Source: a virus | Lineage: Duplodnaviria > Heunggongvirae > Uroviricota > Caudoviricetes | Length of the DNA stretch: 43,585 nucleotides | Virus record (IMG/VR): IMGVR_UViG_2529292909_000016 | Location: 1 to 43,585 of that record | Strand: one strand, 5' to 3' | Shown here: in pieces, positions 1-3,000 of the stretch | How positions within the stretch are numbered: position 1 is the stretch's first letter | Layout of the letters: the number at the start of each line of letters is the position of its first letter | Made by a program: the position numbers

Positions 1-3000
1 TTAAGCAGCCATCTGATGATATTTTTCCCTGAAGGCTGCCGGGGAGATATTCCCCAGACGAGAGTGACGACGCTGACGATTGTAGAAAATCTCAATGTAT
101 TCCCGTATTACTGAGATGGCTTCATCCCGGTTATTAAAACGATAGTGGCTCAGGCTCTCATTTTTCAGCGTTCCCCAGAAGCTTTCCATCGGAGCGTTGT
201 CGTAACAGTTACCTTTACGCGACATTGATGTTTTCAGACCAAACTGCTCCTGTATGACCCGGTAATCGTATGCGCAGTACTGTGAACCTCGATCAGAGTG
301 GTGGATTAGCCCGGCAGGTGGGCGCTGGCTCCTGAGCGCCATAAACAGGGCTTTACCTGTCAGCTCTTTTGTCATGCGCTCTCCCATGGCGTAGCCGACA
401 ATTTCGCACGTATAAACATCTTTGATGCCAGCGAGGTACAACCTCCCTCCTGTGTGGCAACATACGTCAGGTCCGCCACCCAGACCTGATTTGGTGCTGT
501 AGGAGCGAACGTCTGGTTCAGCAGATTTGGCGCAACTGGCAGATTGTGGTTCGAGTTCGTAGTCGCTCTGAACTTGCGTTTCTGCTTACAGCGTAGCCTT
601 AGCTCCTTACGAAGACGTGCCAGTCGGTCACGACCAACGATGATGCCATTCTCTGCCAGTTCCGTCTGGAGCCGCCGGGTTCCATATGTTTCGCGAGTGC
701 GGATATGTGCCACCTTAATCTCCAGTTTTAGCCGCTCATCACTTTGTTTTCTGTCTGAGGGTTCATGCTGTACCCAGTTGTAATAACCGCTCCTGGATAC
801 ACCAAATACCTGGCACATCGCTTCAATGGGAAATTGTTGTCGCCATTGTTCGATTAACGCGTATTTTTCAGCGACTCCTGTGCAAAATACGCTGTTGTAG
901 ATTCAATTGGTCAACGCAACAGTTATGTGAAAACATGGGGTTGCGGAGGTTTTTTGAATGAGACGAACATTTACAGCAGAGGAAAAAGCCTCTGTTTTTG
1001 AACTATGGAAGAACGGAACAGGCTTCAGTGAAATAGCGAATATCCTGGGTTCAAAACCCGGAACGATCTTCACTATGTTAAGGGATACTGGCGGCATAAA
1101 ACCCCATGAGCATAAGCGGGCTGTAGCTCACCTGACACTGTCTGAGCGCGAGGAGATACGAGCTGGTTTGTCAGCCAAAATGAGCATTCGTGCGATAGCT
1201 ACTGCGCTGAATCGCAGTCCTTCGACGATCTCACGTGAAGTTCAGCGTAATCGGGGCAGACGCTATTACAAAGCTGTTGATGCTAATAACCGAGCCAACA
1301 GAATGGCGAAAAGGCCAAAACCGTGCTTACTGGATCAAAATTTACCATTGCGAAAGCTTGTTCTGGAAAAGCTGGAGATGAAATGGTCTCCAGAGCAAAT
1401 ATCAGGATGGTTAAGGCGAACAAAACCACGTCAAAAAACGCTGCGAATATCACCTGAGACAATTTATAAAACGCTGTACTTTCGTAGCCGTGAAGCGCTA
1501 CACCACCTGAATATACAGCATCTGCGACGGTCGCATAGCCTTCGCCATGGCAGGCGTCATACCCGCAAAGGCGAAAGAGGTACGATTAACATAGTGAACG
1601 GAACACCAATTCACGAACGTTCCCGAAATATCGATAACAGACGCTCTCTGGGGCATTGGGAGGGCGATTTAGTCTCAGGTACAAAAAACTCTCATATAGC
1701 CACACTTGTAGACCGAAAATCACGTTATACGATCATCCTTAGACTCAGGGGCAAAGATTCTGTCTCAGTAAATCAGGCTCTTACCGACAAATTCCTGAGT
1801 TTACCGTCAGAACTCAGAAAATCACTGACATGGGACAGAGGAATGGAACTTGGCCAGACATCTAGAATTTACTGTCAGCACCGGCGTTAAAGTTTACTTC
1901 TGCGATCCTCAGAGTCCTTGGCAGCGGGGAACAAATGAGAACACAAATGGGCTAATTCGGCAGTACTTTCCTAAAAAGACATGTCTTGCCCAATATACTC
2001 AACATGAACTAGATCTGGTTGCTGCTCAGCTAAACAACAGACCGAGAAAGACACTGAAGTTCAAAACACCGAAAGAGATAATTGAAAGGGGTGTTGCATT
2101 GACAGATTGAATCTACAGTTGCTTTTTTTAATATATCTCGCTCAAGGCGAGCTTCATTTAACGCCTTACGCAGTTGCAGAATTTCAGATTCCAGTTCAGC
2201 CACCGTGCGGGAACCAGGAGTACCGAGCCCTTTTCTGGCGGCGGTAACCCATTGTCCTAAAGTGCCTTCAGGAAGAGATAATCGGGAAGCGCCTTCACTG
2301 ATCGAAAGTTGATTTTCAAGAACCGTTCTGACAGCTTCGGCTTTGAACTCTTTAGAGTAACGTTGGGTTTTTCTGCTCATTATTAGCTCCTTCTGATGCC
2401 ATTCTATTTCAGGAAGGAGTGTCCGTTAAACTCAGGCTACCTCAGCGTATCTCGGCATCAATGCGCAAACAGCCTGATGCCCTTCGCTACGACCGCCAAA
2501 CTATTTTTGGCCTTGTCCGTGAGCGTCCGATCGACATTCACAAAGATCCCGTAGCACTGAACAAATATATCTGCGAATACCTGACGACAAAGGGCGTGTT
2601 TGAGAATGAAGAAACAGACCTGGGCACTGTTGATGTTCTCCAGTCATCAGAAACACAAACTGATGCAGTGGAAACTGAGGTATCTGATATCCCAAAAAAT
2701 GAAACCGCGCCGGAAGCTGAACCATCTGTAGAGCGTGAGGGGCCGTTCTATTTCCTCTTCGCAGATAAGGACGGAGAAAAATACGGTCGCGCAAACAAAC
2801 TCTCTGGTCTGGATAAGGCACTGGCTGCTGGCGCCACTGAAATCACAAAAGAAGAATATTTTGCCCGAAAAAATGGCACATACACGGGCTTACCGCAAAA
2901 TGTAGATACCGCTGAAGATTCAGAACAACCAGAGCCGATAAAAGTTACCGCTGACGAAGTAAACAAAATTATGCAGGCAGCCAATATCAGCCAGCCTGAC

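What the first reader, a model, noticed from the sequence alone, without database searches (positions are those of the whole stretch)
1..2444. Nested insertion sequences: IS30 inserted into an IS3-family element, both transposase genes inactivated
An IS30 copy (896-2117, terminal inverted repeats present, flanked by GT on both sides) sits inside an IS3-family element at the OrfA/OrfB junction. The IS30 transposase carries a single extra G that splits it into two ORFs; the IS3-family OrfB is itself split between two frames near 372-441. The outer element in turn displaces the 5' end of a prophage exonuclease-like gene (its terminal repeat supplies the first codons of ORF 2419..4050). This stacking marks an insertion hotspot at the prophage early-left region; K-12 Qin has an IS2 at the corresponding position.
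Basis: partly seen in the sequence, partly recalled or inferred. Interest (0 to 1): 0.4.

Follow-up and report, generated by a model that had tools for sequence, protein, structure and literature searches.

The report
IS30 nested inside IS600, in Qin prophage
This is an ordinary and already familiar arrangement: one E. coli jumping gene (IS30) has landed in its preferred target inside another (IS600), which itself interrupts an exonuclease gene of the decaying Qin prophage.

Summary
The nesting is real. IS30 occupies 896-2117, with 26-bp inverted repeats and a 2-bp GT duplication. It sits inside IS600 (1-895 and 2120-2444, minus strand), 4 nt after the A7 frameshift run.

- The extra base in the IS30 transposase is a T (CT to CTT at 1849/1850), not a G. 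It occurs in no other assembly searched.
- IS600 orfB is broken by a 1-nt deletion after 443.
- IS600 does not displace the exonuclease 5' end. In complete genomes it is a full 1264-bp element with a 3-bp GCG duplication, inserted at codon 291 of an 825-codon gene (full-length K-12 ydfE).
- The window starts 8 nt from the end of a draft contig, inside IS600, so it cannot be extended.
- There is no regional hotspot. 3564 genomes have the site empty and 35 share this one IS600 junction.

The stacking is better explained by IS30's known preference for near-palindromic hot spots. IS600::IS30 junctions at this dinucleotide occur in about 610 genomes in one orientation and 1071 in the other. K-12 shows the same for IS911A::IS30A and IS911B/IS30D/IS600.

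One oddity remains. At this locus at least 30 complete genomes carry IS30 in the opposite orientation. This may be real or a draft-assembly artefact.

The parts
1..895 (-). IS600, orfB-side part. It is cut off by the contig end, so the last 43 bp of IS600, including the right inverted repeat, are not in the window.
   Evidence: Aligns to the 1264-bp IS600 reference copies. The window is contig positions 9 onward of AIFY01000034.1.
443..444 (-). Site of a 1-nt deletion (ACCATCC to ACCTCC) that frameshifts IS600 orfB at codon 159. Two further substitutions, at 660 and 813, are synonymous.
   Evidence: The same deletion is present in the hchA-locus IS600::IS30 copy of strain YZ22PE67.
894..895 (.). 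Left copy of the 2-bp target duplication (GT) made by IS30.
896..2117 (+). IS30, 1222 bp. It is identical to the canonical 1221-bp IS30 except for one inserted T.
896..921 (+). IS30 left terminal inverted repeat (26 bp).
2092..2117 (-). IS30 right terminal inverted repeat (26 bp, 3 mismatches to the left one).
958..1890 (+). IS30 transposase, N-terminal 297 codons plus an out-of-frame tail. It keeps the HTH_38 domain and a truncated rve catalytic core.
   Evidence: The rve domain covers residues 229-320 in the intact 383-aa protein but only 229-299 here.
1849..1850 (+). TT where canonical IS30 has a single T. This is the frameshifting insertion, at codon 298.
   Evidence: It is absent from all complete E. 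coli genomes searched.
1850..2110 (+). Detached C-terminal part of the IS30 transposase reading frame.
2118..2119 (.). Right copy of the GT target duplication (IS600 nt 327-326).
2120..2444 (-). IS600, orfA-side part. It holds the left inverted repeat (ending at 2444), the orfA start at 2380 and the A7 slippery run at 2123-2129.
   Evidence: It differs at one base from the 327-bp IS600 fragment (insM) of K-12.
2445..4050 (+). 3' 534 codons of the Qin-prophage exonuclease gene (full-length form of K-12 pseudogene ydfE), with a C-terminal Rv2179c-like 3'-5' exoribonuclease domain. GCG at 2445-2447 is the IS600 target duplication.
4123..5689 (+). Context: the prophage excisionase (4123-4374) and integrase (4394-5689), next to chromosomal rspB. 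This is the left end of Qin.

Best explanation
The region records two successive, ordinary transposition events in a decaying Qin-type cryptic prophage.

First, IS600 (IS3 family, 1264 bp) inserted into codon 291 of the 825-codon prophage exonuclease gene, the full-length form of K-12 ydfE. It duplicated 3 bp (GCG).

Second, IS30 inserted into IS600 by its normal hot-spot pathway and duplicated 2 bp (GT). The target overlaps the IS600 programmed-frameshift window: AAAATACGCT-GT-TGCTTTTTTT, a near-palindrome. Because the target is nearly symmetric, IS30 can enter in either orientation. The same dinucleotide in IS600, and the homologous one in IS911, is occupied by IS30 in both orientations across E. 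coli.

The insertion separates orfA from orfB, so the OrfAB transposase of this IS600 can no longer be made. In this sequence both elements carry later point lesions as well: -1 nt in orfB and +T in the IS30 transposase. Each could then move only if supplied with transposase from another copy.

Shown: the anatomy, the duplications, the order of events and the recurrence of the IS30 target. Inferred: that target preference rather than selection explains the recurrence, and that the +T is a real mutation.
For: - Anatomy and duplications.
- Orthologous complete genomes (for example O157:H16 98-3133) have a full IS600 with both ends and GCG on both sides. The exonuclease frame is restored when IS600 is removed in silico. 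The intact 825-aa gene is seen in ATCC 8739.
- Order of events: strain AST198 has an intact 1264-bp IS600 without IS30 at the same exonuclease site with the same GCG.
- Recurrent IS30 targeting: the IS600/IS30 junction occurs in the window's orientation in 610 genomes and in the opposite orientation in 1071. The loci differ: hchA-porin, an O157 island near traT, and plasmids.
- K-12 has IS911A::IS30A (+), and IS911B-IS30D (-) abutting a 327-bp IS600 fragment at the identical dinucleotide.
- The fec-adjacent IS3-family element interrupted by IS30 (L008, near fecE; its junction sequence matches K-12 IS911) has the same GT duplication 4 nt after its slippery A6G.
- The literature describes IS30 hot spots as 'nearly palindromic' with 2-bp duplications (PMC9333248). 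The lambda LHS hot spot shows the same AAAA-N3-GC ... G(C/T)-N3-TTT(T/A) pattern by my own comparison.
- A nested IS30/IS911 composite has been reported on pSFO157 plasmids (PMC7175801).
Against: - The window lies at the very end of a draft contig that stops inside IS600.
- All four differences from the O157:H16 ortholog fall in the 2.4 kb of repeated IS DNA. There are none in the 3.5 kb of unique prophage DNA.
- At least 30 of the 35 complete genomes with this IS600-exonuclease junction carry IS30 in the opposite orientation, two lack it, and none shows the window's orientation.
- Parts of the IS sequence, namely the orientation and the +T, could therefore be a consensus of several copies rather than the true state of this locus.
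- I could not retrieve the published 24-bp IS30 consensus to score the target formally.
Confidence: 0.88

Rival explanations
1. Assembly artefact. The nesting exists somewhere in this genome, but the particular state shown at this locus is a chimeric or collapsed-repeat consensus produced by a short-read draft assembler. That state comprises IS30 in this orientation, the +T, the orfB deletion and the two SNPs. The assembler would have walked from the unique exonuclease gene into IS600 and then followed another IS600::IS30 copy, for example the hchA-locus type.
For: - The contig ends 8 nt before window position 1, inside IS600.
- There are 0 differences from the O157:H16 ortholog in 3.5 kb of unique DNA, against 4 in 2.4 kb of IS DNA.
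- No complete genome has this orientation at this locus.
- The orfB deletion is otherwise seen only in three genomes. The one fetched, YZ22PE67, carries it in an hchA-locus IS600::IS30 copy with the window's orientation.
- The +T occurs in no other assembly.
Against: - The two substitutions are both synonymous, as expected of real variants.
- The IS30 body lacks the SNPs of the two hchA-locus copies examined, at 1112 and at 1740 or 1766.
- The +T is not in a long homopolymer.
- The assembler did produce a continuous path through 2.4 kb of repeat.
- No read data were available to test this.
Confidence: 0.35
2. The orientation difference is real and arose in place. Three routes are possible: IS30 excision and re-insertion into the same hot spot, transposase-mediated inversion, or gene conversion of the Qin copy by an oppositely oriented IS600::IS30 copy elsewhere in the genome. 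This contrasts with an independent first insertion into a naive IS600.
For: - Strain H3 has IS600 at this site without IS30 but with a 3-bp deletion exactly at the IS30 target. That is consistent with IS30 leaving this site.
- Both orientations coexist in single genomes, for example FORC 064, which provides conversion donors.
- The shared orfB deletion with an hchA-locus copy suggests exchange between copies.
Against: - AST198 shows that a naive IS600 exists at this locus, so an independent insertion is equally simple.
- The same GT duplication is expected under every scenario, so the anatomy does not discriminate.
- The orientation itself may be an assembly artefact.
Confidence: 0.25
3. One reading: the early-left end of the prophage is a regional insertion hotspot that attracts different IS elements (IS600, IS30, and IS2 in K-12).
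For: - K-12 has an IS2E remnant 102 bp from the IS600 site.
- Two genomes also carry an ISCro1 insertion in the region.
Against: - 3564 genomes have the site uninterrupted, while only 35 share one identical IS600 junction.
- IS30 targets IS600 wherever IS600 is, not this prophage region.
- Accumulation of IS elements in a dead prophage is what relaxed selection predicts.
Confidence: 0.07
4. The IS600::IS30 composite arrived at the exonuclease gene as one 2.5-kb unit, mobilised in trans by IS600 transposase from another copy, rather than by two successive insertions at this locus.
For: - The composite keeps both IS600 ends and is found at several loci and on plasmids.
- The 3-bp duplication is compatible with this.
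Against: - AST198 carries a plain 1264-bp IS600 at the same site with the same duplication.
- The hchA-locus composite has no matching 3-bp duplication.
Confidence: 0.12

Closest known systems
E. coli K-12 IS911A::IS30A (CP4-6 prophage; insN/insI1)
   Same: IS30 is inserted in an IS3-family element in the orfA/orfB frameshift region, 4 nt after the slippery A-run. The 2-bp duplication is AC/GT.
   Different: The host element is IS911, not IS600. The IS30A transposase is intact.
E. coli K-12 KpLE2 IS911B - IS30D - IS600 fragment (insM) - IS911B-1
   Same: It contains the very same IS600/IS30 boundary. The 327-bp IS600 fragment ends at the same dinucleotide and differs from window 2118-2444 at one base.
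   Different: In K-12 the IS30 left end abuts the IS600 orfA side, which is the opposite orientation. The rest of IS600 is deleted, and the other IS30 end abuts IS911B.
IS600::IS30 at the Qin exonuclease gene in at least 30 complete E. coli genomes (for example O157:H16 98-3133, ML35, NCTC9041)
   Same: The IS600 insertion site, the GCG duplication and the IS30 target dinucleotide are the same. The unique flanking DNA is 100% identical in 98-3133, the only IS30-carrying ortholog aligned base by base.
   Different: IS30 is in the opposite orientation. The IS30 transposase and IS600 orfB are not frameshifted.
IS600::IS30 at the hchA-porin locus (O104:H4, YZ22PE67) and in an O157:H7 island near traT
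   Same: The IS30 orientation relative to IS600 is the same as in the window. The YZ22PE67 copy shares the orfB 1-nt deletion.
   Different: The chromosomal locus is different. Their IS30 carries two to three substitutions and lacks the +T. The O157 copy has ISEc8 nested inside IS30.
K-12 Qin ydfE / IS2E / intQ
   Same: The prophage and the exonuclease gene (ydfE) are the same, and the gene is also destroyed by an IS.
   Different: The IS is a truncated IS2, 102 bp upstream of the IS600 site. It is associated with a deletion reaching into int. It is not the same position or the same element.

Membership tests
IS30 (IS30 family) | Element of about 1221 bp, nearly identical to reference IS30 | tested here: met
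   1222 bp. Identical to the 1221-bp copy shared by two complete genomes except for one inserted T.
IS30 (IS30 family) | 26-bp imperfect terminal inverted repeats | tested here: met
   896-921 and 2092-2117, 23/26 matching, with 0 expected by chance.
IS30 (IS30 family) | 2-bp target-site duplication | tested here: met
   GT at 894-895 and 2118-2119. The 2-bp duplication is stated in PMC9333248.
IS30 (IS30 family) | Single 383-aa transposase with N-terminal HTH and C-terminal DDE (rve) core | tested here: not met
   The frame is broken at codon 298 by +T. The rve match is truncated to residues 229-299, against 229-320 in the intact protein. This is a defective copy of the family, not a non-member.
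IS30 (IS30 family) | Insertion into a near-palindromic hot spot (or next to IS30 ends) | tested here: inconclusive
   The target AAAATACGCT-GT-TGCTTTTTTT is 7/10 symmetric and resembles the IS911 and lambda LHS sites. The published consensus could not be retrieved for formal scoring.
IS600 (IS3 family) | 1264-bp element nearly identical to reference IS600 | tested here: met
   After removal of IS30 and one GT, the sequence is 99.8% identical over the 1220 nt present.
IS600 (IS3 family) | Both terminal inverted repeats (5'-TGAGGT...) | tested here: inconclusive
   The left repeat is present and ends at 2444. The right repeat lies 43 bp beyond the contig end, so it is absent from the window. It is present in orthologous complete genomes.
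IS600 (IS3 family) | 3-bp target-site duplication | tested here: met
   GCG at 2445-2447, and GCG on the far side in L001, L014 and L015. In the window itself only one copy can be seen.
IS600 (IS3 family) | orfA and orfB overlapping, joined by -1 programmed frameshift on an A-run to give OrfAB | tested here: not met
   The A7 run (2123-2129) and the first 87 codons of orfA are present. IS30 separates orfA from orfB, and orfB has a 1-nt deletion. This is a disrupted copy.
Qin cryptic prophage (left end) | Exonuclease (ydfE) - xis - int adjacent to rspB, collinear with Qin of K-12 and ATCC 8739 | tested here: met

The most novel reading that the evidence does not exclude
IS30's hot-spot preference may coincide specifically with the conserved programmed-frameshift window of IS3-group elements (IS600, IS911). 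IS30 would then systematically disable these elements, in either orientation, by cutting orfA from orfB. This would be a form of transposon-versus-transposon interference that shapes IS600/IS911 activity across E. coli. IS600::IS30 junctions at one dinucleotide are seen in about 610 and about 1071 of 5426 genomes. A lesser variant of this reading is that IS30 can flip in place at such a palindromic site, which would give the orientation polymorphism seen at the Qin locus.
Probability: 0.2. Interest if true: 0.35.

Novelty: already known. Interest (0 to 1): 0.12.

Why it matters
It matters little for biology. Nested IS30-in-IS600 and IS30-in-IS911 arrangements are annotated in K-12 and in hundreds of genomes. 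A dead prophage gene interrupted by an IS is routine.

The practical value is for annotation:
- ORF 2419-4050 is an artefactual start inside an IS end. The gene is a 3' fragment of the 825-codon Qin exonuclease (ydfE).
- The apparent IS30 frameshift and orientation sit at the end of a draft contig and should not be over-interpreted.

There is one mildly interesting by-product. The IS600/IS911 frameshift window is a very frequently used IS30 target, hit in either orientation. That could be examined as interference between IS families.

Tried and rejected
- Extending upstream of position 1 is impossible. The source contig (AIFY01000034.1 of GCA_000249655.2) begins 8 nt upstream. I used orthologous complete genomes instead.
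- An exact-protein look-up of the 146-aa orfB fragment was meant to trace the orfB deletion. It was uninformative, because gene callers also call this internal ORF in intact IS600 copies, in 343 blocks of the collection.
- The published 24-bp IS30 target consensus could not be found. PMC179709 is not held, and the searches for 'GOHS' and '24 bp consensus' gave nothing usable. The hot-spot similarity therefore rests on my own comparison with lambda LHS and IS911.
- I looked for a near-clonal complete genome, using the second prophage in the window, to judge the IS30 orientation. None is close: the best is ML35 at 80% coverage and 97% identity.
- A search for the accession prefix in papers, to learn the sequencing method, found nothing relevant. 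My recollection that AIFY belongs to the DEC draft-genome set is unverified.
- I considered that the +T might be a shared, inherited allele. This is rejected, because it is absent from every complete genome covering that stretch of IS30 and from every other indexed assembly.
- I considered a programmed frameshift in IS30. This is rejected, because canonical IS30 encodes one uninterrupted 383-aa ORF.
- The first Pfam call failed because of a frame error and was repeated.
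Full report
WHAT IS THERE

Window 896-2117 is an IS30 copy of 1222 bp. Its 26-bp terminal inverted repeats lie at 896-921 and 2092-2117 and match at 23 of 26 positions, with none expected by chance. GT lies on both sides, at 894-895 and 2118-2119. This is the 2-bp duplication IS30 makes when it integrates into a hot spot (PMC9333248).

Aligned to the 1221-bp IS30 that is identical in two unrelated complete genomes, the window copy differs at a single position. There is an extra T in GAACTGGCC, giving GAACTTGGCC at 1849/1850, not an extra G. 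This breaks the 383-codon transposase at codon 298 into ORFs 958-1890 and 1850-2110. It also truncates the rve catalytic core, which spans residues 229-320 in the intact protein but only 229-299 here.

THE OUTER ELEMENT

Deleting IS30 and one GT gives a sequence 99.8% identical to IS600, with 1614 genomes holding a near-full-length match. Comparing IS600 copies at four different loci defines a 1264-bp element. Its ends read TGAGGTAGCCTGAG... and TGAGGTGTACTGGC....

In the window the left end finishes at 2444, and orfA starts at 2380 on the minus strand. The IS30 duplication is IS600 nt 326-327, 4 nt after the A7 slippery run (nt 316-322, window 2123-2129). This is inside the orfA/orfB overlap, at orfA codon 88 of 100. 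The IS30 insertion alone therefore prevents synthesis of the OrfAB transposase.

The window's IS600 also has a 1-nt deletion after 443, which frameshifts orfB codon 159 and explains ORFs 372-818 and 1-441. It carries two substitutions, at 660 and 813, both synonymous.

THE EDGE OF THE WINDOW

The truncated 310-aa IS30 product occurs in exactly one indexed contig, AIFY01000034.1 of NCBI draft assembly GCA_000249655.2. The window starts at base 9 of that contig. The contig therefore ends inside IS600, 35 bp short of its right end.

Orthologous complete genomes answer the question instead. In O157:H16 98-3133, IS600 is complete: 1264 bp, identical to the reference once IS30 is removed. It is flanked by GCG on both sides. 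The outer element is a full IS with a 3-bp duplication, not a fragment.

THE INTERRUPTED GENE

ORF 2419-4050 begins with a GTG inside the IS600 terminal repeat, so that start is an artefact. When IS600 and one GCG are removed in silico from the ortholog, the reading frame runs on upstream.

In ATCC 8739 the gene is intact. It encodes an 825-aa 'exonuclease' in the order dicB-ydfD-exo-xis-int-rspB, which is the left end of Qin. IS600 sits at codon 291. The window keeps the last 534 codons, which carry an Rv2179c-like 3'-5' exoribonuclease domain.

K-12's pseudogene ydfE is the 5' part of this gene. In K-12 a 706-bp IS2E remnant begins 102 bp upstream of the IS600 site and replaces everything up to window position 4529. 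'IS2 at the corresponding position' is therefore only roughly right.

HOTSPOT OR NOT

The uninterrupted exonuclease site is present in 3564 of 5426 complete E. coli genomes. The IS600-exonuclease junction is present in 35, plus two spurious two-piece hits. All are identical, which suggests one ancestral insertion. This does not indicate a regional hotspot.

What does recur is IS30 entering IS600. A 240-bp probe across the IS600/IS30 junction in the window's orientation is matched end to end in 610 genomes. The opposite-orientation junction is matched in 1071. The loci are unrelated:
- hchA-porin in O104:H4 and YZ22PE67;
- an O157:H7 island near traT, where ISEc8 is additionally nested inside IS30;
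- plasmids.

K-12 itself shows the same pattern. IS911A is split by IS30A (+). IS911B is followed by IS30D (-), which abuts a 327-bp IS600 fragment (insM). That fragment ends at the very same dinucleotide as window 2118 and differs from window 2118-2444 at one base.

In IS911 the duplication is again AC/GT, 4 nt after the slippery A6G. The IS600 target AAAATACGCT-GT-TGCTTTTTTT is 7/10 symmetric. By my own comparison it resembles the lambda LHS hot spot, AAAAGTGGCG-AT-AGTGAATTTA. This fits the published description of IS30 hot spots as nearly palindromic and explains why both orientations occur. A nested IS30/IS911 composite has also been described on pSFO157 plasmids (PMC7175801). The arrangement is known and common.

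ORDER OF EVENTS

Strain AST198 has a plain 1264-bp IS600 at the same exonuclease site with the same GCG. IS600 therefore came first and IS30 second. Strain H3 also lacks IS30 but has a 3-bp deletion exactly at the IS30 target. This looks like an excision footprint.

THE ONE ODDITY AND ITS CAVEAT

At this locus at least 30 of the complete genomes carry IS30 at the same dinucleotide but inverted relative to the window, and none shows the window's orientation. The window is 100% identical to the O157:H16 ortholog over 3.5 kb of unique prophage DNA. Yet it carries four private differences in 2.4 kb of IS DNA.

The orfB deletion is otherwise seen only in three pig isolates. In the one fetched, YZ22PE67, it lies in the hchA-locus IS600::IS30 copy, which has the window's orientation. 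The +T occurs in no complete genome among the 3357 that cover this stretch of IS30.

Together with the contig ending inside IS600, this leaves two live readings:
- a real, independent or flipped IS30 insertion with later decay; the two synonymous SNPs and the canonical IS30 body favour real variation;
- a draft-assembly path or consensus that mixes IS copies.

I cannot decide between them without reads. I put about 0.35 on at least part of the state being artefactual. Either way, the IS600 transposase at this locus is dead because of IS30. Whether the IS30 transposase is truly dead is uncertain.

VERDICT

The corrected details are:
- the extra base is T, not G;
- the gene is interrupted, not displaced;
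- the K-12 IS2 is nearby, not at the same place;
- there is no regional hotspot;
- the window cannot be extended.

This is an already known kind of structure with low interest. The only mildly novel angle is how systematically IS30 hits the frameshift window of IS600 and IS911, in both orientations.

Noticed in passing
window 18977-43585: A second prophage-like block starts right at, and overlaps, the 3' end of dmsD. It includes a 1706-aa 'large polyvalent protein' (LPD5, LPD1, MuF_C and LPD38 domains; 18977-24097, minus strand), Lom (26423-27160), tail-tip and collagen-repeat tail-fibre genes, a portal-like gene, a DUF1737-SASA esterase (38821-40731) and RecT (41823-42608). No complete E. coli genome holds it near-identically. 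The best match is ML35, at 80% coverage and 97% identity, at another locus.
   Followed up: partly
L028 3626-6302 (K-12 MG1655 4507125-4509801): K-12's KpLE2 region reads IS911B(1-334) | IS30D | IS600(327 bp, insM) | IS911B-1. The IS600/IS30 boundary is at the same dinucleotide as in the window. The layout looks like the product of recombination between two IS30 copies, one in IS911 and one in IS600.
   Followed up: partly
L014 about 2359-3620 (E. coli strain H3, Qin locus): IS600 sits at the same exonuclease site without IS30, but it is 1261 bp long. It has a 3-bp deletion (ACGCTGTTGC to ACGCTGC) exactly at the IS30 target dinucleotide. This may be an imprecise IS30 excision footprint.
   Followed up: partly
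L010 2225-6163 (O157:H7 TR01): Triple nesting: an IS66-family element (ISEc8) is inserted in IS30, which is inserted in IS600 at the same site and in the window's orientation, next to traT.
   Followed up: no
L016 3102-5544 (YZ22PE67, hchA-porin locus); window 443/444: The rare 1-nt orfB deletion of the window's IS600 is shared with the hchA-locus IS600::IS30 copy of YZ22PE67. Its two sister pig isolates show the same no-gap match, and the other complete genomes listed align with a gap there. This hints at exchange between copies, or at repeat mixing in the draft assembly.
   Followed up: partly
L001 2274-5958 (upstream of the window's position 1 in the ortholog): The Qin remnant upstream is heavily decayed. 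The 5' exonuclease fragment is itself truncated and abuts a DUF977 pseudogene. Further upstream lie several frameshifted ORFs and a partial ISNCY transposase. dicA/dicB/dicF, present in K-12 and ATCC 8739, are absent.
   Followed up: no
window 1-6000 orthologs in BS74R-D and FORC 064 (hits H30, H31): Two genomes carry an additional IS66-like ISCro1 insertion within the same 6-kb region, giving a span of about 8.7 kb instead of 6 kb.
   Followed up: no
window 1-2444 versus 2445-6000: All four differences from the O157:H16 ortholog lie in the repeated IS DNA and none in the unique prophage DNA. The window begins 8 nt from a draft contig end.
   Followed up: yes
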